From the NCBI GenBank assembly GCA_000004985.1, contig GG738856.1: a DNA stretch of 64,000 nucleotides; one strand, given 5' to 3'. Positions 27,924 to 63,383 of the stretch are shown piece by piece. Within the stretch, counting starts at the first letter, position 1. Every line of letters begins with the position of its first letter. The notes beneath the pieces were generated by a model. That model was not told the origin of the DNA and made no database searches. It saw only the letters and a program-made list of their open reading frames with translations. The position numbers were made by a program, and so were the translations under genes. This stretch comes from Naegleria gruberi. Taxonomy: Eukaryota.

Positions 27924-28887
27924 TTACAAGAAGTACATTGCCTTATTGGATGGTTGTATGTTATGGTCAATAGGAACTTCCTTAAAGCTCTTAAATTCTC
28001 TGCCCAAGTTATCATCAAAAGCTAAAATACTGGCCATGTTACCGCAACGATAACAATAGTTTGGAGCTGACCAAACTGTAACCAAGTTTTGTTCTGGGAA
28101 ATGATACTTGTATCCTTCTTGCACCAATTGATGCGCACGACAAATAAGTTCAAGATTGTTCAAATGATTGAATTCAGATGTGACACGACTTCCAAACAAC
28201 CAACCAGCACCACGAGGAGAAACAGCCCAAGTTTCAATATTTTCTGGATCAGACCACATGACATCACAGAATGGACCTTCATGTGGAATTTCTTGTCTAC
28301 GATCAATAGTTCTCATTTGATCCAAAGTACGAATATCGGGAGACAAACCTCCGTGAACACACAAAACTCTTCCATCAATAACAGCAGCAACATTGAAACA
28401 GTCAAAAACTTCACAACAATATTTCCAAGCGTTAGCATTACCATATTTACGTTGACATTCATCATAGAAACCATAGATTTGAGTAATTTGACGAGATTCG
28501 TGATTACCTATTAATAATAAGAAAACGGAATTAATATTCAAACAATATAAAATACATACCACGCAATAAAGTCATACGTTCTGGATATCTGGCCTTCAAG
28601 AGCATCAAATAAGTCAAAGTTTCCAAGCTGTTGTATCCTCTATCAACAAAATCTCCCATGAATATATATCTAGTATCTGGCAATTCACCACCTGTCTTGA
28701 ACAACTCTAACAAGTCGTGGAATTGACCGTGGATATCACCACATACTGTTACAGGGGATGAAACAGGTTGTACGTTAGATTCTTCAATCAAGATGGACTT
28801 GACCATATTACATAATTTCTTCAAATCTTGTTCAGGTAAATAATCGCACTTCTTTACCTTCTCTATCCATTGATCCAATTCAGCCAT
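27924..28887 (-). CDS. Serine/threonine protein phosphatase 6 catalytic subunit (PP6 / Sit4-type PPP), 2 exons
   Basis: Exon 1 is about 28560..28887 ([20 protein letters not shown]). A 52-nt GTATGT...AATAG intron lies at about 28508..28559. Exon 2 is 27924..28507 ([52 protein letters not shown]...YFL). The protein is closest to PP6 over PP2A or PP4, for example in the NVQPVS motif. Confidence 0.9.
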
Positions 28888-29437: not shown

Positions 29438-30330
29438 ATGAACAGGGAAAAGGTTGTGGTTCTTCTTGATGAAAAAAAGTTTATGCATCGTGATGATAGA
29501 TTGATCATTCTTTTACGTCATGTTTTGAGAACACCAACCTACTCATTGAAAGATATTATTGGGAATAGATTACCGAATGCATCTAATTTTTTCCAATATC
29601 CTTGTGATGTTGTTATTGATGAGAGGAGATCATTATTATTTGTTAGTGATTGTGGAGAGTTAAATATTCAAGTTTTTGATTTACACTCTAGGGAGTTAAT
29701 GTATAATATCAAAACAGTTGATAGACCAAGATTTATGGCAATGTATTGTGACTCCTTGATATTTAGTTCCGAAGACGGATTTGTTTATAGATTCGATCTA
29801 GAAACTCGTAGTGAAATTTGGAAATCTTCTGGAAAAATGTCAAATCCTTGTGGAGTTATTGTTGATGAAATGAGAGGATTAGTTTTTGTTTGTGAATGTG
29901 GAGGTAATACCATCCAAACTCTTTCGGCCGAAACCGGAAAAGTGAGATCAATACTTGTTCTGACTCCTAAAAGGCCTACTCTTTTCTACAATAATGATAA
30001 TATTCCTTCAGTGAGCAATCCCTATGGTATTGCATTCAGTTTGGATAGAAATTATTTTGTAGTTTCTTCAGTTGTTAATGCAAAAATTTACTTGGTTGAT
30101 AAAAAGGGAAAAATTGTGCATTCCTTTGGAGAACACGGCTCAAAACCAAATCAATTCAATTTTCCATCCAGCTTGGAGGTTTCCTTAAATCATTTGGAAA
30201 CCAAGCTCCTCTATACAGCAAAGAAGCACTTTACCAGCCAAGAGGATTGTCTATCGATCATGCAACTGGTGATCTTTACGTAACTGATTATGGACAGGAT
30301 AGAATTTGTGTTTACTCTCAATTCAACTGA
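29438..30330 (+). CDS. NHL-repeat beta-propeller protein. The last blade is in a different frame from 29438..30283, so there is a frame break, an unresolved tiny intron, or a pseudogene
   Basis: Repeated blade motifs (FQYPCDVVIDERRSLLFVSDCGELNIQVFD; SNPYGIAFSLDRNYFVV). The final canonical blade LYQPRGLSIDHATGDLYVTDYGQDRICVYS is encoded in the +2 frame at 30229..30330. Confidence 0.5.
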
Positions 30331-40394: not shown

Positions 40395-42820
40395 TTAGAA
40401 ATATAATGTTTTCACATCATTTGGATCATATCTCATACCGCACCTAGGACATTTTCTGTTTCTTATTTTGATATTCTTATCCAGACAAGTCTTACAAAAA
40501 CAGTGGAAGCATCTACTGATCACTGTATCAATATCGTTCTCATTACATTGAGAACATCTGAAAGAAGTGTCAGTGCTGCTACTTGCGGTAAGTGTCTTTT
40601 CCTTTTCTAAGAAACGTTGCTTCTCCGATTCCAGCTTTTTGATGGAAAGAGTTTGCTTGTGACATTCTGTCTCCTTCTTTTCAAGGTCCTGTAAAAGTTG
40701 ATTATTTTTAGCTTTGGATTGTTCCAGTTCTGTAGAAAGTGATTGCACTGATTGTTTGGAATTTTCCAAAACTTGTCTTTGGTGATCAATTATTCTCTTG
40801 TATTGAGTTTCTTCAAGCTTTCCCTTTTCAACAATTTCTGATAACATGGTCTTTTCGTTATTGAGTGTCACTATTTTTTCATCATATTGTTTCTTAATTT
40901 TCTCATGTTCTGTACAAACATCAGATAATCTTTTCATTTCTTCCTTCATTGATTCTACATTCTTTTCTAATTTAGCCTTTTCTTTCATGGACTCAAGTCT
41001 TTGTTCTTCTGCTCTATCAACTCTTTTGGCAATGTCCTCCTTTTCTTGGAGTAATTTTTCATAACATTGCGTTGTATCATTGAGAGAACTTTCAAACATT
41101 TCACTTTGTTCCTTCCATTTGATAATTTCTGCCTTGAGTAAAGAAATTTCCGTTTCTGGCTCCTTAGGTTGAGAAGAAGATTCTTTAGACTCCTTATGAT
41201 CGGCTGCTAATTTTGACAGCTCTTCATTTCTCTTCTTGTACATATTTAATTGTCTAACAATCTCTTCCTTATCTTGCTTGTAAACTCGCAATTCTTCAGC
41301 AGATGCTTTAGCTCTTTCATACCTAGCAACAAGTTTGTTGTACTTTTCTGTTTGCTCTTTTTTCTTTTGAAGCAATTGTTCATTCTGTTTGACAAGGTGG
41401 TGCTCAGACTTTTCCTTTGTCACCTTTTCAAGATTATCTTTGAGATTCTTGTTTTCCTTCTTCATTTCAAGTATATCTTGTTTAATCTTTTCCTTAAAAG
41501 TATTATAAGTTTCTTCAAGAGCCTTGATATTTGCCTTATTCTTTTCAACTTCCTGATTGTATTGATTGTAAAATTGTTCAACTCTTAATTTTTCCTTTTG
41601 AACATGATCCTTATAGTAATCTACTTCAGCAGTAACGTTTTTGATCTTTAACTCTAATTCCTCTATTTTGACTTTGTGTCGTTCATTAATGCCATATTCT
41701 TTAGAATATTTTTGAGCATATTCTTGTAACTCTTCTTCTCTTTTTAAAAGAGCTTGTCTGACATCATCTACTTGGGCATTTGCAGGTAAGCTGTCAAGAG
41801 CTGATGAAGAAAAAACTCGTGTTGGCGTACGGAAAGGTGATAATGGTGTAGAACAAGGAGATGCTGAACGTAATTCTTCATTTTCTAAAGAAATTCTTTC
41901 AACTTTTTTGTATGTGTCTACATATTCCTCCTGTTTCTCATCTAACTTTTGTTTTAATTCCTCTAATTTTTTGTTTGAGTCTTTAAGTTGTTCATGAAGA
42001 GAATTGTATTCATCCTTTATCTCTCTATATTCAATATTTAAAGCTTTGAGTTTCTCTTCCAATTGTTTCTCATTACTACTCGTTTTCCCATCTTTTACGC
42101 TGTTAACTGATTGTATGATTTTTGAAAGTATACTCTTCAACCTTTCGAACAGTTGGTTAATTGAGTCATCATCTGTTTTGCCATTGTAAACTTTGCTAAT
42201 AAAATCCAAACCTACCACTCCATTTGGAACTGAAGGTAATCTTGATAACTGTATTGAAATGTCTTCTATCATCTAACAAGGTTATTATAGGAAATGTATT
42301 TGAAATGAAACATACATGATTAAATTGTCTAACAAGTCTCATCATATTCGAAGAAGTATTATCTCTTTGTTTGGATGCTTCTTTAGCTTCATTAATAAGC
42401 TGTTGATTTAACATGTTTAACTCCTTATTTTTGAGTAATAATCTCTTCTTTTGCTCATTGACAAGTTTCAGGTCATGCTGAAATGGTCATTCAATAATTA
42501 ATTAAAATCAATCTACATACCACTTCTGAAGCGTTAAATTTAGTCTTCTTAGTTGGTGGAGAAAGAGGTTCAGATGATTGTGATTGTTGGGATGGTTCAA
42601 TTTTAGTTGGGGTAGATGGGAAAGAAGTTGTTGTGGAAATAGAGGAAGGTGTGGCTTGTGTAGGGGTAAAAGATCCAACTGCAGGACTTGGTGTATCTGG
42701 TATTGATTGAAGATTAGTAGTATTGATATGAAGATGACTTCCATTCAACTTTGGACTTCCTTGGTTGATTTCATCTTGTTTTCTCTTCCTAACCTCCTTA
42801 TCCTTCAGTTTGTGCAACAT
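40395..42820 (-). CDS. E3 ubiquitin-protein ligase BRE1 (RNF20/RNF40 family), with a long coiled coil and a C-terminal C3HC4 RING; 3 exons
   Basis: Exons are about 42522..42820 (ATG MLHKLKDKEV), 42306..42478 and 40395..42262. They are joined by two 43-nt GTATGT...CAG/TAG introns at about 42479..42521 and 42263..42305. The total is 2340 nt, in frame. The C-terminal CSQCNENDIDTVISRCFHCFCKTCLDKNIKIRNRKCPRCGMRYDPNDVKTLYF matches the BRE1 RING. Confidence 0.75.
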
Positions 42821-54978: not shown

Positions 54979-55338
54979 ATGAAATCTGCCCTTCTTCTTA
55001 CTCTCACCATCTTGGTATCCCTAGCAATTGCCACAACTGCATTGAAATGTTACAGTGGCATTCAACAAACAGGCACTGGTACCATTACAACAATTATTGA
55101 AGTTAGTAACTCAACTCTAACCAATTATGTCTGTGCTCGTTATGAACAAAGTGTTTCATTTGTTACTCAAAAGGTTTTCACATATACTGACAAGGCAACA
55201 TGTGACAATTGGTTATCAATTACCACATTCCAAAAGGTTTATTGTTGTAATACTGATTTGTGTAATGGTGGAGAACATGTTGTTGGATCTGCATTGATGA
55301 TTGGTTTGGCTATCATTGCTTCTTTCATTCTTTTGTAA
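54979..55338 (+). CDS. Small secreted/GPI-anchored Ly6/uPAR (three-finger, LU domain)-like protein
   Basis: Signal peptide MKSALLLTLTILVSLAIATTA, the mature start LKCYSG, the hallmark CCNTDLCN motif near the C-terminus, and a hydrophobic GPI-signal-like tail GSALMIGLAIIASFILL. Only 6 Cys are present. Confidence 0.5.
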   Translation: MKSALLLTLTILVSLAIATTALKCYSGIQQTGTGTITTIIEVSNSTLTNYVCARYEQSVSFVTQKVFTYTDKATCDNWLSITTFQKVYCCNTDLCNGGEHVVGSALMIGLAIIASFILL

Positions 55339-56322: not shown

Positions 56323-57675
56323 TTATTTAAAAGAAAGAACACAAGTTTTAGATCTGGATGAGCAATACAATTCACCATTTTCACAATCCAAAGCAATATC
56401 AATTCCCTTTCCAGATGTACTAACATCAAAGAATTCATTATTATAGTCAACCCATTCTTGTCCTTCTTGATTCATTGAAACAATTCCATATTGAGTAGTA
56501 AATATTCTACCAGTTTCGTTTTCAATTACTAATCTTCCAGTTCTTCCACATGGAGTTTTCAATTCAACCTTTTTGAGAATCTTTCCCTTCTTATTACATA
56601 CAATCATTTCGTATTCTGAAAGTAAAACCAAATCATTATTGGAATTCAATGCAAGTGATGCAAAATCAGTATTTCCAAATATATTTTGACCTTGCAAGTT
56701 TTCCCTTAACGATTTAATGACCTTTCCAGTGTCAGGACACAAAAAGTCAATGCCGCCTCTTTGTAACAGGTAAATAGTGCCATCATGCTTATCAACTGCC
56801 ATGCTTCTAATGATTCCCATGTCTTCATCATTCTCCCAATAGGTCATTTTACCATCTCTTGAAATTTTCACAATAGTTGAGGCACAACATCTGTCAATTA
56901 CATAGACAAGAGCATCATCTCTCAAATCATAGCATGTATGATAGTGATCTCTATCTTGTGGTTCTTTAAAATGGTTGACCATCAATTTAGTTTTAGTATC
57001 AAATTCAAAAATAGTACTACGATCTGAAACAAATAGTTTTCCATGTTTGGAATCCAAACAAATAGCATTTGGACCAGTGAATTCAAAATTGAAATCTTCA
57101 TTTTCACCCAATTTCTTTTCATCTTCATATTCAAGACTGAACGGAACATTTCTTGCTACAGTGGTCAGCACCTTATGAGTATGAGAACTAGTCTTGGTTG
57201 ACTTGTTGTGTAACTTGAAATGATTTTCACACAAATTAACCTTACACTGCTCACACCAATATCCAGCAGCGATAGACTCACCATGTTCCTTCAAACATTT
57301 AGCACAATCACAAGTATTTTTCAAAGCAGGAATCTCAACAACAGATGAAGCATGTGATTTCGTCTTGTTTGAATTATTATGCAAATTGATGTGATTTTCA
57401 CAAAAGTTCATTGAGCAAGTTGGACATGAATGGGTAGCAATCACTTCTTCCTCTTCATCCTTCAAACATTTATCACAATACTTGATGGAAATCTCAACCT
57501 TTGGTGGAAGAAATGAAATTTCCTTGACATGGCTTGTATGTGATCTCGTCTTGTTGGAATTATTGTGTAATCCCAAATGGTTCTCACACATATTCATGTT
57601 ACATTCTGAACAATGGTGCGTGGCTTGAACTTCCTCTTCGTCATCCTTCCAACATTTATCACAATGAATCATCAT
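56323..57675 (-). CDS. RING-less TRIM-like protein with three tandem B-box zinc fingers followed by an NHL-repeat beta-propeller
   Basis: Three B-boxes of about 45 aa. The first two share the shape CDKC.KD.EEEV.ATH.C..C.MN.CENH..LHNNSNKT.SH; the third (CAKCLKEH...CEQCKVNLCENHFKLHNKSTKTSSH) is a more divergent copy. NHL-type blades follow (e.g. LFVSDRSTIFEFD, IYLLQRGGIDFLCP). ATG at 57675, single exon. Confidence 0.7.
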   Translation of the reverse strand: MMIHCDKCWKDDEEEVQATHHCSECNMNMCENHLGLHNNSNKTRSHTSHVKEISFLPPKVEISIKYCDKCLKDEEEEVIATHSCPTCSMNFCENHINLHNNSNKTKSHASSVVEIPALKNTCDCAKCLKEHGESIAAGYWCEQCKVNLCENHFKLHNKSTKTSSHTHKVLTTVARNVPFSLEYEDEKKLGENEDFNFEFTGPNAICLDSKHGKLFVSDRSTIFEFDTKTKLMVNHFKEPQDRDHYHTCYDLRDDALVYVIDRCCASTIVKISRDGKMTYWENDEDMGIIRSMAVDKHDGTIYLLQRGGIDFLCPDTGKVIKSLRENLQGQNIFGNTDFASLALNSNNDLVLLSEYEMIVCNKKGKILKKVELKTPCGRTGRLVIENETGRIFTTQYGIVSMNQEGQEWVDYNNEFFDVSTSGKGIDIALDCENGELYCSSRSKTCVLSFK

Positions 57676-58025
57676 TTGATTTGATTATTCTTAATTTTTT
57701 CTAAATATCTCTTAGAGAGATTTTATCAACAATGAAAGTGAGGAGTTTTGGGTGAATGTTCAATAACAAAGAGCTGTAATCTTACTATTGATTAGTACAG
57801 CGCACGAATCCTTGACCCAACATGTACAAATAGTCGGTGAACATACCATGAACACTAAAAGGAAATACTAATTAAGGCTTGCTCGAAAAGTACCTACCAT
57901 TAAATATGAACCTATTGGGATGTGTCGTAATCACTGAAATATATCACCTCGCTGCTAAACAGCGTCATCTTTTAGCCTCTCAATAATGTGTTGTTTGCTT
58001 ATTCAATTTGTCCACACAACAAAAA

Positions 58026-59039
58026 ATGTCCTCACAACTCTCTGTATTGAAAGAATGTCAATGGTGTTTACAGCATGATGATGAGCATTGTGTAGCTACT
58101 CATCAATGTGCTGATTGTAAGGTTGATTCACATGAATATTTATGTGAATTACATGCAAATATTCACAAACAAGTTACCAAGTATAAATCTCACAATATGC
58201 AATCGCTTTCCTTTGGACCTATTTGTGATTTGAAAATCAATCCTACTTTTAAATTGAGTGAATTCAAGTTTTATCAGCCAAGCAGTTGTGTAATCGCTCA
58301 ACAATCTTTATTCGTCACTGATCGTGATTCCATATTTGAGTTTAATTTGAAATCGGGTGAATTGGTACAACATTTTAATGAACCTCAAGAGAGATATCCA
58401 AGAAATTTATGTTATGATCCTTCTGATGATACTCTTGTTTATTGTATTGAAAGAGGATCTTCTTTTGATGTTGTTAAATTATCTAAAAATGGTAAAAGAA
58501 TTTTGTGGGAAATACAAGATCAATTACGAATTAGTGATATGTGTGTCGACAAGATGAATAATGGAAATGTCTACACCGTTCAAAAAGATGGTATTGTTGT
58601 CATCAATAAGGGAAAAGTTGTTAATACTTTGAGAGATGACTTGAACGGTGACAATATGTTCATCAATATTGCCTACGACTCATTGGTTGGTGTTGCAACT
58701 GATTGTAATGACCAATTGATCATTTCTACAAAGAGATGGATTTTGATTTGCGATAAAAAGGGAAAAATTCTCAAGAAGGGACAAAAGATTAGAGAAGGTG
58801 AAAGTTGTAGAATTCAAGTTGATCCAATTCAATCTGACAGAATTTATTATATTGGTGATGAATGTTTGGAATCATGTTTATTGAATGGAACCAAGAGATT
58901 GTTTCTGAAATATGATCCAAATTATGAAGAGAGGTTTGAAATTTATTGTGGAGCTGGTTTAGATTTTGTAATTGACTTTGAATCAAGACAATTAATTGTT
59001 GCTAATATTTGTAAAGGAAAGATTCAAGTATTCCACTAG
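58026..59039 (+). CDS. B-box zinc finger + NHL-like beta-propeller protein, paralog of 56323..57675
   Basis: The ORF-track start 58008 is a TTG. The ATG is at about 58026 (MSSQLSVLKECQWC). The B-box is CQWCLQHDDEHCVATHQCADCKVDSHEYLCELHANIHKQVTKYKSH. Propeller blades are collinear with the divergently transcribed neighbour (LFVTDRDSIFEFN, VYTVQKDGIVVI). Confidence 0.65.
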   Translation: MSSQLSVLKECQWCLQHDDEHCVATHQCADCKVDSHEYLCELHANIHKQVTKYKSHNMQSLSFGPICDLKINPTFKLSEFKFYQPSSCVIAQQSLFVTDRDSIFEFNLKSGELVQHFNEPQERYPRNLCYDPSDDTLVYCIERGSSFDVVKLSKNGKRILWEIQDQLRISDMCVDKMNNGNVYTVQKDGIVVINKGKVVNTLRDDLNGDNMFINIAYDSLVGVATDCNDQLIISTKRWILICDKKGKILKKGQKIREGESCRIQVDPIQSDRIYYIGDECLESCLLNGTKRLFLKYDPNYEERFEIYCGAGLDFVIDFESRQLIVANICKGKIQVFH

Positions 59040-59065: not shown

Positions 59066-62000
59066 TTATTTTTCAATGCCTGGTCTAACTCTATTTAGAT
59101 CTAATTTCATAGATTGAGATCTCTTCATAGATCTAGCTGCTACTTGAGACTTGAATACAGCTTCCTTGGCTTTCTTGAATTGTAAAACAAATTCTGAAAT
59201 TAAAGCAAAGAATTCATCTTCTGCCAATTGCTTGTCGGTGGATTCAACAGGAACAAAGTGATAGAATTCATAACAGGCAGTGAATTCCTTTTGGAGTTTT
59301 TCAAATGATTCTTTGGTTGAAGGGAAGTCCTTTTGGCAGAGTTCATAAAATTCTTCTAACATTTTCTTGTAAGAATCAGTATAGGCTCCTCTTGGAATAT
59401 CTTGCTTGGATTTACAAATAAACTTGTACATTGATTCTAATTCAGAAAAATTCAACACAAGTCCAGGAACAGTAATTATGACACCATTATTACACACACC
59501 TGCCTCGTAGAGTTCTTCATCAAAGTTTCTTGTTTCTTCATCACATATTTTTACAAGATAGCTTATCAAAGTAGTACTCTTATCGACGGTTGATCTTGTA
59601 TCTTTAAGTTTAGTCAAAATTCTCAAATCAAATCCTTCACCTTCCAAACGCTTCTTACCTCTGTTCATAAAGCTACCAATGGCAAGGACATATGACAAAA
59701 GCTTGGCAAATGACTTGCAATTAACTATACACTCGATGGCTTTTCTCTTCTTTTCAATCTTTTCACTAACTTCTTTAAGTAAGATTGGGAATGATGACAT
59801 GTATCTCATCAATCTAAGCTTGGAGGCAACATCTTCAATAGCCAAAATATCCAAGAAGAAAATATCAGACTTTGGAAGTTCTTCGCGATCCAACCCCTTA
59901 AGTTTAGTCTTCATTGTTAAGGTATCACCACTACTTGTGAATTGTTCTAAATTCTCAATTTGTTGATTAGTGAGCTTTGTAATATCAAGATTATTGATAG
60001 CTTCAACAACAATTTCATTACTAATAGATTTAAATTGACTGTTAATAATAATTTCAATATTTCTAGCTGTCTTGTTATCAATAATACCTTCAGTTGCCAA
60101 TGATTTTTGTAAAGTTCTAGGAGAAGCTTTGGTACCGCCTCTTGGTGAGGTAAATCCTTGTCTTGGAGTGGCACCACCAGTGGCTGGTTCTGGTTCTTCT
60201 TCAGCCTTTGTTTGTTTAGCAAACAACATTTCAATTTTTTCCAAATCAATCATGTTAGGATCAACTTCAATCTTACTCCACACAGAATATTCCGAGTCAA
60301 CTTTCTTGATTGGCTTCCAATGCAATTGTTTGGTCTTACTGACCTCTTCTTCTTCAGTGTGTTGAATGTACTTCTTTTTAGTACCAAAAGAGATTGCGCC
60401 AGGTGGAGGTGGAACACCAGGTGGGAAAGGAATACCGCCAGGTGGGAGAGGGATTCCCATGCCTGGTGGAGGTGGAATGTTACCAAATGGAGGTGGAGGC
60501 GGAATGTTACTACCTGGAGGTGGAGGAATATTACTTCCACCAGGTGGAAGTGGAATATTGGAAGATGGTAAAGGAATATTACTATTTGGCACAGGAGAAT
60601 TATTTACAGATGTTGGTTGTGTTGTAGTACTTGGTTCAGGTTCCTTTTCTTCCTCTACTATATTCATATCAGCATAAGGTTTTGTCGAGATTAGATATCT
60701 GGCATGTTCAATTTCTGTTGTTCTAGATAAGAAATGAGGACACTTTTCAAGTGAACAAACTAATTCAGTCCAATAACTTGTTGAAAGATCAGCTGCATCT
60801 TCCTCACTTGCACAATCAATTTCTGAAAAGTTTAACTCTAGTTTAAAGTTTCCGGAGAAACTTGGTGAATTGTGAGCCCAATCGAGTTCACTCTTGTCTA
60901 CCACTACTACAGTGCTTGTTAAAAAAAGAGTATTAAAAGTAAATCTAAAGAGAGAAATAATGTTACCATCGTCAGCCATTGTAAAAGCAAGAAGAATAAA
61001 ATCTCCCATCAATGGTTTGCTTTCATTGAATGGTAATGTATAGTGGAACCATGTTTCAATTCTTGTAGAAGGTCTTTCTTCACCTCTTGGTGAACTCATA
61101 AATGTTTTTCTTCTCTCAACTCTTGGAGCATTATTAACAGAAGCTGTAGTAAATGTAGAAAACAAAATATCGGTTTGTTTTCTTACGACGAAATATAACT
61201 TTCTATATTGGAAAGAATTTAGACTGTCAGGAACTGTATCTTCATCATCACCTTTAATTGCAAGCCATTCATCTCTTTTAGGTGTTGTTCTAGATGGTTG
61301 CAAACTCATTCTTCTATCGCGTGATGTTGACTCAACCATTGATGTTGCCATATTATGATTAGAATGTTTTACACATAACCTAGAACTATTCATGGAAATG
61401 CATTGCAATCTAAATACTGAAGGTTTAAAGAAACCTTTAAATGTTGGGTTGACTGAAGGAGAAAATGTCAACATTGGAACATCGTGTACCATCAAAGTGA
61501 GTGGTCTTTGAAGTGAAATAAGGAATAAATTAGCATAACGATAAACTGATGGTTCAAGACTCTTCAAAAGAGTCATAGATTTTGGATTCAATTTCTTTTC
61601 TAATCTAGTATATACAATATCTCTTGCTTGGTTCAAAATCATCATGGTATTTAAAATTCTCTGACTATAATTTGTTGTTGTGGTGGTTGTTGTTTGGTTA
61701 CTTGTAGTAGAAACTGCATCAAGATCATTATTATTGAGAAGCACTTTTCCATCTTCTTCATCTGCTGTTGTAACTGTAATATTAACTTCATTATCTTGTG
61801 ATTGATTTGGTTCCACATTAGGTGAAACTTCTGTTGAATTTGATTGTGGTTGTTGCTGATCAGAAGTATCCAAATTTTCAAGAGAATTTACACTAACAGA
61901 GGCCAGATTAGATGATGAACCTCCTGCTCCATCTAAAACAACAGTTGTGACTGTTCTTTCTGGATGATGAGATTTGAGACTAGATTGTTCAATTCCGTAC

Positions 62001-62319
62001 ATATCCATATACATTTTAGAATCAGTATATGAAACAAATACAGCTGCTAATAAAAGTGCATAACAAGTTGTTTTTGTTGATGCAACAATAACAATACAAT
62101 AATCTTTGGAAGTTGAATAATTTAGGAGGAAATTATCAATCATGGATGAAAGGGAAAGAAGTACTGGAAGTTGTTCGAAATGTTCACTAATGACAGGAGT
62201 TGAACCAATTTCGAAACATGGTCTCGTCGTTACGGCAGGAAATGGTTTAGAAGTGAAATTGAATACAAAAACCTTGTCACTGTACTTATCAGTCAACATG
62301 GTTGATATTCTATTGTTCA
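59066..62319 (-). CDS. Formin (FH1 polyproline + FH2 domain) with an atypical N-terminal region
   Basis: Single exon of 1084 aa. The FH1 domain has repeated (N/G)IPPPPG tracts, encoded by the cca/cct-rich stretch at about 60370..60560. The FH2 lasso/knob is ...KQLHWKPIKK... with a long helical FH2 core. The N-terminal segment DYCIVIVASTKTTCYALLLAAVFV loosely resembles a degenerate PTEN phosphatase P-loop region. Confidence 0.8.
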
Positions 62320-63383
62320 TTTCATCAGTTCCATTGTCATTGTGAATATCTAGTAGTAGTAATAGTAATAGTATTGATGATGATATGGAGATGGTAAATA
62401 TTTAGAATATCACACAATCATAGCAGTGATAAGCAGAGATGATGAAAATTATTGATAGTAGTAGGGTGTTGGTGATTGGATGATATCATCACAAAGATTT
62501 TAATAGTAATATTCCATCATAAATGTTATAGTTTGTCATTATCGGAATAAACCAACAGCCATTTGAATAAATTACTTGACATTTTCATACACAAATCTAC
62601 TTACATTTCAGCCTCTCGTTTATATTAATATCTATAATATCATTATAGTTCCAATAGTTACGCAGAGCCTTGAACATTTTTCAAAATAGGAGAGAATAAT
62701 ACTATGTACACACTCTATACTCTCCAAATTAACGTTCTCGGATTTTTCTAAAAATCGGTGGTGTTGGTGTTCTTCTTCTTCTTGTCGTATCGATTTTCTA
62801 TTATAATCAAACACAATAATAACACCTCTCCAATTCGCTGATCGTTGTTGTTGTGATTTTTTTAAAATTTGTTGCTGTGAATGCAAACGTCTCGTTATTA
62901 ACGCACAAACGTGTAACCTAGAAAATATTTTATCACTCTCTCGGAGACTCTTTACACGGAAGAGGGAAAAGGAGTTTTGAAGAGGTTGATTGTACAATTG
63001 TTGGTGTTATTGAATGGTGAAATACGACTCTTCAACGGGATGGTTTTTTGATGCTGATTTGTCAAAGGTTCTTTGTTCAACAGTGAAAGTTGGTGAGCTG
63101 CTGGTTGTTGGAAACTAGACGAAAGAGTGAAGAATGTAAACTGTCTTGTTTTTTTCAAAGTGGAAAGTATTTTGATACAAGTGATGAAAGGAATGCTGTC
63201 ATGAAACACGCTCAATGAAGATCACCAGCAAGAAGGGCAATTTGGCAAGTTCCGAAAATAACAGACGTAAATATTTTGTCAACATTCATCAGCTTTTGTA
63301 TGAGGAAACCACGAAAGCAAGATCTCTCAAAATAACAACACAGTCAATCAACGAAAATGTGATCAAGATAAAAACAAAACTGT

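What the first reader, a model, noticed from the sequence alone, without database searches (positions are those of the whole stretch)
56323..59039. Head-to-head pair of RING-less B-box + NHL propeller genes, one with a tandemly triplicated B-box
Two paralogous genes (56323..57675 minus; 58026..59039 plus) are transcribed divergently from a shared spacer of about 350 bp. Both have B-box zinc fingers followed by NHL-type blades. Neither has the RING or coiled coil expected in TRIM-NHL proteins such as LIN-41 or BRAT. The minus-strand gene contains three B-boxes of about 45 aa with a repeated CDKC.KD.EEEV.ATH.C..C.MN.CENH..LHNNSNKT.SH shape, an internal domain triplication. A third NHL-propeller gene lies at 29438..30330. 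This looks like a lineage-specific expanding family of B-box/NHL proteins, possibly RNA-binding or E3-adaptor-like.
Basis: partly seen in the sequence, partly recalled or inferred. Interest (0 to 1): 0.6.

Follow-up and report, generated by a model that had tools for sequence, protein, structure and literature searches.

The report
Naegleria RING-less B-box–NHL divergent gene pair
Two neighbouring, back-to-back genes of the amoeba Naegleria gruberi encode stripped-down relatives of animal TRIM-NHL proteins (zinc-binding B-boxes plus a six-bladed NHL propeller, with no RING and no coiled coil), and the genome holds three copies of the pair, a modestly interesting uncharacterised family outside animals.

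The parts
56323..57675 (-). Gene A CDS (450 aa), identical to N. gruberi NAEGRDRAFT_65049 / XP_002679868.1: three B-boxes plus an NHL-type propeller
   Evidence: ORF; exact identity to P0052; cluster names
57538..57663 (-). Gene A B-box unit 1 (aa 5-46)
   Evidence: Eight-ligand pattern; beta-beta-alpha fold at pLDDT about 85
57352..57477 (-). Gene A B-box unit 2 (aa 67-108). It carries the 'SCPxC...SHASSVV' signature shared with unit 2 of paralogue 81762.
   Evidence: 81% identity to P0002 unit 2
57175..57306 (-). Gene A B-box unit 3 (aa 124-167), the most divergent unit, with all eight ligands kept
56326..57120 (-). Gene A six-bladed NHL-type beta-propeller (aa ~186-450). It includes the conserved loop HFKEPQDR (aa 235-242, window 56950-56973).
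57676..58025 (.). 350-bp shared spacer between the divergent genes, the presumed bidirectional promoter. It has no ORF and no Cys/His-rich frame.
   Evidence: Six-frame translation; 5 mismatches plus indels against the strain contig L001; largely unalignable with the spacers of the paralogous pairs
57838..57864 (.). 27-nt block TGAACATACCATGAACACTAAAAGGAA, shared 21/27 with the spacer of pair 2. Marginal significance.
   Evidence: 2% of shuffles reach the score, uncorrected for six comparisons
58026..59039 (+). Gene B CDS (337 aa): one B-box plus an NHL-type propeller. Its exact product is not in the protein collection, so it is probably missing from the reference annotation.
58056..58193 (+). 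Gene B B-box (aa 11-56), with a 4-residue insertion (SHEY) before the fifth Cys
58263..59036 (+). Gene B six-bladed NHL-type propeller (aa ~80-337)
29438..30330 (+). Gene C (NAEGRDRAFT_65035): an NHL propeller without a B-box and a distant relative. It is frameshifted relative to the strain copy P0055.

Best explanation
The locus is one of three copies of a divergently transcribed two-gene module found in Naegleria gruberi (this reference genome plus contigs of a closely related strain). Each module encodes an 'A' protein with two or three B-box-1 zinc fingers plus an NHL propeller, and a 'B' protein with one B-box plus an NHL propeller.

Shown here:
- the domain identities;
- the absence of a RING and a coiled coil;
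- paralogy of A and B;
- one inverted duplication followed by two duplications of the pair as a unit;
- a three-B-box state that predates those duplications;
- membership of a heterolobosean B-box-NHL family whose longer members have a Brat-like layout (B-box1, B-box2, coiled coil, NHL).

Inferred:
- Without a RING the proteins are not E3 ligases in their own right.
- The B-boxes act as weak homo- or hetero-typic association modules, as B-box 1 does in KAP1/TRIM28. In that case A, with three units, would be multivalent and B monovalent.
- The propeller binds a ligand on its top face. Two loops invariant in the four-sequence alignment A2 (A, B, P0002, P0003), HFxEPQxR and LRxxxxGxNxF, map there in the model.
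- A and B are co-expressed from the shared 350-bp spacer and probably work together as non-catalytic adaptors or scaffolds.
For: Organism and gene identity.

B-box: the ligand pattern and invariant columns, a TIF1-beta (TRIM28/KAP1) hit at E=5e-5, and the modelled fold.

No RING or coiled coil.

Three pairs: L001, L002 and L003. In the tree, the A clade, the B clade and A+B each have 100% bootstrap support. Both clades show the topology (p1,(p2,p3)), at 92% and 98%. The flanks of pairs 2 and 3 are not homologous to the window.

Intact ORFs in two strains, with pN/pS of 0.48 and 0.33 from very few substitutions.

B-box 1 drives weak dimerisation and higher-order assembly in KAP1 (PMC6660772).

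Invariant loop residues H235 F236 E238 P239 Q240 R242 and R324 G329 N331 F333 fall between strands D1/A2 and D3/A4 of the model.
Against: There is no expression, interaction or localisation data. Co-regulation and A-B co-assembly are inferences from gene arrangement alone.

En-bloc duplication copies neighbours regardless of function, so retention of both genes in three copies is suggestive, not proof.

The spacers of the three pairs are almost unalignable.

Pfam's curated NHL and B-box thresholds are not reached by A or B themselves.

The top-face assignment of the conserved loops rests on an AF2 model built from 4-5 sequences and on the usual blade convention.
Confidence: 0.55

Rival explanations
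1. The proteins are sequence-specific RNA-binding post-transcriptional regulators. Their NHL propeller would contact RNA on its top face as in Brat, LIN-41/TRIM71 and Mei-P26.
Against: All six paired propellers are net acidic (pI 5.1-6.4, net charge -2 to -11). From general knowledge, RNA-binding NHL domains present a strongly basic top face. The conserved loops contain E, P, Q and N as well as R. No surface electrostatics could be computed. TRIM2, TRIM3 and TRIM32 NHL domains, which score equally well, are not established RNA binders.
Confidence: 0.2
2. They belong to a ubiquitin or SUMO pathway after all. Either the B-boxes supply weak E3-like activity or E2 recruitment, or the proteins act as substrate receptors for a separate RING E3.
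For: B-boxes are structurally RING-like cross-brace zinc fingers, and the modelled fold is beta-beta-alpha. The closest homologues of both domains are in TRIM E3 ligases.
Against: No RING was found in A, B or any of the 41 profile hits. There is no coiled coil to build the antiparallel TRIM dimer. No partner E3 is encoded next to the pair; the flanking genes are a formin and an uncharacterised ORF.
Confidence: 0.12
3. The propeller is an enzyme of the six-bladed hydrolase, lyase or lactonase type (PAL, SGL, strictosidine-synthase-like), and the B-boxes are accessory.
Against: The sequence profile ranks TRIM-NHL domains four or more orders of magnitude ahead of any enzyme. No curated enzyme family is hit above threshold. 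No conserved His/Asp/Glu metal-site pattern is evident among the invariant columns, though this was not tested formally.
Confidence: 0.05
4. They are ordinary TRIM-NHL genes whose RING and coiled-coil exons were missed.
For: None found.
Against: The spacer has stops in all six frames and no Cys/His-rich frame. Upstream of each gene lies the other gene. The A-type paralogues begin MMIHCDKC, MKVVNCDKC and MVNCDKC, 3-5 residues before the first B-box. The linker from B-box to propeller is only about 20-35 disordered residues. The ORFs are continuous in two strains.
Confidence: 0.02

Closest known systems
Drosophila Brat / C. elegans NCL-1 (RING-less TRIM-NHL proteins)
   Different: From general knowledge, Brat has B-box1 plus B-box2 and a long coiled coil. 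Genes A and B have only B-box-1-type units (one or three), no B-box 2 and no coiled coil. They are about half the size, have acidic propellers, and come from a heterolobosean rather than an animal.
Class VII TRIM-NHL E3 ligases (TRIM2, TRIM3, TRIM32/Thin, TRIM71/LIN-41, Mei-P26)
   Same: The NHL propeller is the closest solved homologue (Thin E=1.6e-12, TRIM2 1.6e-10, TRIM3 2.3e-8). There is a B-box N-terminal to the NHL domain.
   Different: No RING, no coiled coil and no filamin domain. Marin 2012 (PMC3503706, Table 1) lists this subfamily's range as 'Animals'.
KAP1/TRIM28 B-box 1
   Same: It is the best solved match to the zinc-finger units (6o5k, E=5e-5), with ligands aligned in register. 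B-box 1 mediates weak dimerisation and higher-order assembly (PMC6660772).
   Different: In KAP1 the domain sits inside a RING-B1-B2-coiled-coil array. Here it stands alone or in tandem triplicate, directly before a propeller.
Long heterolobosean B-box-NHL proteins (N. fowleri FDP41_007119 = P0042; Willaertia magna ABK040_005426 = P0023)
   Same: They have the same N-terminal B-box-1-like unit and an NHL propeller, come from the same taxonomic group, and were recovered by the family profile.
   Different: They also carry a Pfam-significant B-box (zf-B_box 33.1 bits) and a Pro/Gly-free, heptad-periodic region of 117-174 residues. Their NHL repeats are canonical (81 bits). P0042 residues 107-268 also align to a TRIM3 chain that is not the NHL construct (8amr, E=3.8e-6). 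The window genes look like pared-down derivatives of this form.
Plant BBX proteins (tandem B-boxes, RING-less)
   Same: They are RING-less proteins with one or two tandem B-box-1-like zinc fingers used for protein-protein interaction (general knowledge).
   Different: BBX proteins carry a CCT domain or nothing C-terminally, never an NHL propeller.

Membership tests
B-box zinc finger, type 1 | Eight Zn ligands with C-x2-C-x7-17-C-x2-C-x4-8-C-x2-3-[CH]-x3-4-H-x4-10-H spacing (consensus quoted from general knowledge) | tested here: met
   All four units in A and B, and 23 of 23 family units, keep C,C,C,C,C,H,H. The eighth ligand (H) is nearly invariant.
B-box zinc finger, type 1 | Significant sequence similarity to an established B-box | tested here: met
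   The unit profile hits the TIF1-beta (TRIM28/KAP1) chain 6o5k at E=5e-5; that this chain is B-box 1 is from memory. With a single sequence, Pfam PF22586 scores 26.4 bits against a cutoff of 27, which is borderline.
B-box zinc finger, type 1 | Beta-beta-alpha cross-brace fold that binds two zinc ions | tested here: inconclusive
   AF2 predicts two short strands plus helices per unit, at pLDDT about 80-85 for units 1 and 2 and 53-70 for unit 3. Zinc binding cannot be tested here.
NHL-repeat beta-propeller | Six four-stranded blades | tested here: met
NHL-repeat beta-propeller | Matches the curated NHL repeat model (Pfam PF01436) above threshold | tested here: not met
   A and B have no NHL hit at E<=1. 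Family relatives do pass: P0008 73.6 bits, P0015 27.2, P0011 20.7, P0059 56.2.
NHL-repeat beta-propeller | Profile-level homology to solved NHL domains, ahead of other propeller classes | tested here: met
   The top eight PDB hits are all NHL domains (E=1.6e-12 to 5e-8). The first non-NHL hit is at 1.8e-6.
TRIM / RBCC family | N-terminal RING finger | tested here: not met
   No C3HC4 pattern in A, B, the spacer or any family hit. The N-termini are conserved among paralogues.
TRIM / RBCC family | Coiled coil after the B-box(es) | tested here: not met
   No helix outside the B-boxes in the AF2 models. No heptad-periodic, Pro/Gly-poor window, whereas P0042 and P0023 have one.
TRIM-NHL subfamily C (Marin 2012) | Descent from the animal TRIM-NHL clade (a phylogenetic criterion; reported range is Animals) | not tested
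   No joint phylogeny with animal TRIM-NHL sequences was built. The similarity ranking is compatible with shared ancestry, transfer or convergence.
Bidirectional-promoter gene pair | Head-to-head genes less than 1 kb apart | tested here: met
   350-bp spacer in the window, and 334 and 323 bp in the paralogous pairs.
Bidirectional-promoter gene pair | Co-expression of the two genes | not testable with these tools
   No expression data could be reached.

The most novel reading that the evidence does not exclude
Heterolobosea carry a genuine TRIM-NHL lineage. N. fowleri and Willaertia have B-box1, B-box2, a coiled coil and an NHL domain, aligning to TRIM3 beyond the propeller. That would put the origin of the B-box-NHL module before or outside animals, or reveal an ancient transfer. 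In N. gruberi this was pared down to a two-gene, bidirectionally transcribed A/B module. Its products would co-assemble through B-boxes into a multivalent propeller scaffold, and the module was amplified as a unit, a 'two-component' TRIM-like system.
Probability: 0.2. Interest if true: 0.65.

Novelty: new variant of a known kind. Interest (0 to 1): 0.45.

Why it matters
TRIM-NHL proteins (Brat, LIN-41/TRIM71, TRIM2/3/32) are major regulators of animal development. The TRIM evolution survey read here lists their subfamily as animal-specific (PMC3503706). A family in a discoban amoeba that joins the same two domains is therefore informative. Its short forms lack both a RING and a coiled coil, and its long forms look Brat-like.

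- It offers a natural 'minimal' B-box-NHL protein for asking what these two domains do without E3 activity or the TRIM dimer scaffold.
- It bears on when the B-box-NHL combination arose.
- The thrice-copied divergent A/B pair is a neat, testable case of a gene pair duplicated and kept as a unit.

The window genes themselves are existing 'predicted protein' models in a published genome (gene B apparently unannotated). The advance is characterisation rather than discovery of a new kind of system.

Tried and rejected
1. I first read L002 (P0002/P0003) as an orthologous pair from a second species. Cluster look-ups showed the window is N. gruberi itself and that these are paralogues, so I corrected this.

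3. The afdb50 fold library was unavailable, so I have no structural survey of other eukaryotes.

4. The word-indexed search with a broader alignment (A8) returned almost nothing useful.

5. Scans of JGI metagenome contigs and IMG/VR viral contigs found no relatives, so there is no support for a giant-virus origin.

6. Literature searches for the gene IDs and for Naegleria with B-box or NHL found no relevant paper. A Naegleria differentiation paper holds no supplementary tables.

7. The reference N. gruberi loci for P0003 and P0006 were not retrievable. The pair arrangements come from contigs of a 98-99% identical strain in one ENA metagenome.

8. Conservation between spacers gave only one marginal 27-nt block.

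9. NCBIfam gave nothing meaningful, and Tandem Repeats Finder found no DNA-level repeat.

10. The hidden-RING-exon hypothesis is rejected.
Full report
**Observation.** ORF listing confirms gene A at 56323..57675 (-), 450 aa, and gene B at 58026..59039 (+), 337 aa from its ATG. They are separated by a 350-bp spacer. BLASTP shows they are paralogues: 33% identity over 342 residues, E=7e-46. Each of A's first two zinc-finger units also aligns to B's single unit. A regular-expression scan finds three units in A (aa 5-46, 67-108, 124-167) and one in B (aa 11-56). All have the spacing C-x2-C-x13-C-x2-C-x4-C-x2-H-x3-H-x8-H; B has a 4-residue insertion. A's units are 50-74% identical in protein and 63-71% in DNA. 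Tandem Repeats Finder sees nothing, so the triplication is old.

**Organism.** The window has about 33% GC. Gene A's product is identical to XP_002679868.1 (NAEGRDRAFT_65049), and the product of the ORF at 29438..30283 is identical to XP_002679730.1 (NAEGRDRAFT_65035). Both lie on one 602-kb Naegleria gruberi scaffold. An ENA metagenome (ERZ929261) holds contigs of a 98-99% identical strain. I first mistook its paralogous contigs for another species and corrected that. Gene B's exact product is absent from the 15-billion-protein collection, and its only cluster mate at 90% identity is the ENA strain copy. Gene B is therefore probably missing from the reference annotation.

**Domain identity, B-box.**
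- Pfam gives only ANCHR-like_BBOX at 26.4 bits (cutoff 27), in three stretches.
- In a profile of 23 units from the family, the seven Cys/His ligands C,C,C,C,C,H,H and one Ala are invariant, and the eighth ligand (His) is nearly invariant.
- The best PDB hit of that profile is the TIF1-beta (TRIM28/KAP1) chain 6o5k, at E=5e-5 with ligands in register. That this chain is the isolated B-box 1 is from memory.
- The ligand pattern fits the B-box-1 consensus C5(C/H)H2 (general knowledge).
- AlphaFold2 models each unit as two short strands plus helices, at pLDDT about 80-85 for units 1 and 2.

**Domain identity, propeller.**
- Pfam's NHL model does not hit A or B.
- A single-sequence PDB search gives only a weak TRIM2 NHL hit (E=0.056).
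- A 10-sequence family profile has as its top eight PDB hits the NHL domains of Thin/TRIM32 (1.6e-12), TRIM2 (1.6e-10), TRIM3 (2.3e-8) and Brat (5e-8). The first non-NHL propeller is at 1.8e-6.
- The AF2 models (propeller pLDDT 80-90 over most of the domain) show 24 strands in A and 23 in B, which I group into six blades. There is no long helix, and a low-confidence linker of about 20-35 residues follows the last B-box.
- Foldseek could not separate NHL from WD40.
- Close relatives pass Pfam NHL outright, for example N. lovaniensis P0008 at 73.6 bits.

A and B are therefore divergent but genuine NHL-type propellers.

**No RING, no coiled coil.** All six frames of the spacer are full of stops and none is Cys/His-rich. 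The only RING-like pattern in the 64-kb window is at 40440-40556 (-), in another gene. None of the 41 profile hits has one. The A-type paralogues start 3-5 residues before the first B-box. A heptad-periodicity and Pro/Gly scan finds no coiled-coil-like window in A or B, but does find one in the long N. fowleri and Willaertia relatives.

**Family and evolution.** HMMER against 1.84 billion representatives finds only 44 proteins at E<=1e-3 and 13 at E<=1e-10. Cluster look-ups place the close ones in Naegleria gruberi, N. lovaniensis and N. fowleri; a more distant hit (P0023, E=9e-6) is from Willaertia magna.

N. gruberi has at least 10 B-box+propeller members: 65049, gene B, 81762, 53360, 47029, 78767, 68017, 81014, 51768 and 71727. 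It also has propeller-only relatives: 49274, 47031 and 65035. This count is a lower bound, because the library collapses sequences above 50% identity.

The strain contigs show two further head-to-head pairs. One is 81762 (three B-boxes) with 53360 (one B-box), 334-bp spacer, on L002. The other is 47029 (two B-boxes) with 78767 (one B-box), 323-bp spacer, on L003.

A neighbour-joining tree of the propeller (287 columns, 200 bootstraps) gives 100% support for the A clade, the B clade and A+B together. Both clades have the same topology, (pair1,(pair2,pair3)), at 92% and 98%. This implies one inverted duplication followed by two duplications of the pair as a unit. The flanks of pairs 2 and 3 have no homology to the window, so the conserved unit is the pair. 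A's unit 2 and 81762's unit 2 share a specific signature and 81% identity. The three-B-box state therefore predates the first pair duplication, and 47029 most parsimoniously lost unit 2. P0009, a singleton relative, has an unrelated ARM-repeat gene as its divergent neighbour. Between strains both genes have pN/pS below 1 (0.48 and 0.33), from very few substitutions.

**Wider context.** N. fowleri FDP41_007119 (P0042) and Willaertia ABK040_005426 (P0023) have four elements:
- the same B-box-1-like unit;
- a Pfam zf-B_box (33.1 bits in P0042, above the 24.1-bit cutoff; 24.0 bits in P0023, just below it);
- a Pro/Gly-free, heptad-periodic region of 117-174 residues;
- canonical NHL repeats (81 and 62 bits).

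P0042's NHL domain hits Thin at 2e-33 and TRIM71 at 5e-31. Its residues 107-268 align to the TRIM3 chain 8amr, which is not the NHL construct, at E=3.8e-6. From memory of TRIM3's domain map, that region is B-box 2 plus coiled coil. This is a Brat-like, RING-less TRIM-NHL layout in Heterolobosea. Marin 2012 lists the TRIM-NHL subfamily's range as 'Animals' (PMC3503706). No paper linking Naegleria with B-box or NHL families, or naming these genes, was found. Scans of viral and JGI metagenome contigs were negative.

**Mechanism (inference).** Without a RING the proteins cannot be autonomous RING E3 ligases. Without a coiled coil they cannot form the antiparallel TRIM dimer. B-box 1 of KAP1 drives weak dimerisation and higher-order assembly (PMC6660772). 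Tandem B-boxes would make A multivalent and B monovalent.

The columns invariant in A, B, P0002 and P0003 include two loops. One is HFxEPQxR (A residues 235-242). The other is LRxxxxGxNxF (A residues 323-333). In the model they lie between strands D1/A2 and D3/A4, which by the usual propeller convention is the top, ligand-binding face.

The propellers are acidic (pI 5.1-6.4). That weakly disfavours Brat-like RNA binding and favours a protein or other ligand.

My best reading is that A and B are co-expressed, B-box-assembled, non-catalytic adaptors or scaffolds. Confidence is about 0.9 in the anatomy and evolutionary history and about 0.4 in the mechanism.

**Verdict.** The genes are existing, uncharacterised gene models of a published genome, with gene B apparently unannotated. 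The architecture is a new variant of the TRIM-NHL theme, not a new kind of system. Interest is moderate. It comes mainly from the non-animal occurrence of B-box-NHL proteins and from the thrice-copied divergent pair.

Noticed in passing
window 29438-30330 (+): Gene C (NAEGRDRAFT_65035, annotated as 281 aa ending at 30283) is frameshifted. The strain copy P0055 (322 aa, one continuous ORF) matches 29438-30193 in one frame and 30175-30327 in another. About 19 codons, including an NHL motif, are missing in the reference. This is either a pseudogene or an assembly error. The intact P0055 passes Pfam NHL at 54.4 bits.
   Followed up: partly
window 58026-59039 (+): Gene B's exact product is absent from the 15-billion-protein collection, and its only cluster mate at 90% identity or above is from an ENA metagenome. 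The gene appears to be missing from the N. gruberi reference annotation.
   Followed up: partly
P0042 (N. fowleri FDP41_007119) and P0023 (Willaertia magna ABK040_005426); not in the window: These are RING-less proteins with a B-box-1-like unit, a Pfam B-box, a long coiled-coil-like region and canonical NHL repeats. P0042 also aligns to a TRIM3 chain that is not the NHL construct. This is a Brat-like TRIM-NHL layout outside animals, whereas PMC3503706 lists that subfamily as animal-only.
   Followed up: partly
L003:573-1568 (-) and L003:1892-3070 (+): Reference gene models of paralogues look wrong. NAEGRDRAFT_78767 (283 aa) lacks about 48 residues that are present in the continuous 331-aa ORF, probably a false intron. 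NAEGRDRAFT_47029 (603 aa) seems to fuse the 392-aa gene to unrelated downstream sequence.
   Followed up: no
window 54979-55338 (+): A 119-aa ORF has hydrophobic stretches at both ends (signal-peptide-like at the N-terminus, GPI-signal-like at the C-terminus), several Cys residues and weak Pfam hits to CD59 (E=0.001) and the activin-receptor three-finger domain (E=0.004). It may be a Ly6/uPAR/CD59-like protein in Naegleria.
   Followed up: no
window 59066-62320 (-): A 1084-aa formin with an FH1 poly-proline tract, an FH2 domain (E=1e-52) and a PTEN-type C2 domain (E=1e-8). It is convergent with gene B, with 26 bp between the stop codons.
   Followed up: no
window 40440-40556 (-): The only C3HC4 RING-like pattern in the window (CSQCNENDIDTVISRCFHCFCKTCLDKNIKIRNRKCPRC). 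It belongs to an unrelated gene about 16 kb from the pair.
   Followed up: no
window 57838-57864: A 27-nt block in the spacer (TGAACATACCATGAACACTAAAAGGAA) matches the spacer of paralogous pair 2 at 21/27 in the same orientation. 2% of shuffles reach this score, uncorrected for six comparisons. It is not seen in pair 3.
   Followed up: partly
window 27924-28887 (-): Two adjacent minus-strand ORFs (27924-28562 and 28531-28887) whose translations look like the two halves of a serine/threonine protein phosphatase catalytic subunit. They are presumably split by a short intron or a frame change. The phosphatase identification is from reading the sequence and was not checked against Pfam.
   Followed up: no
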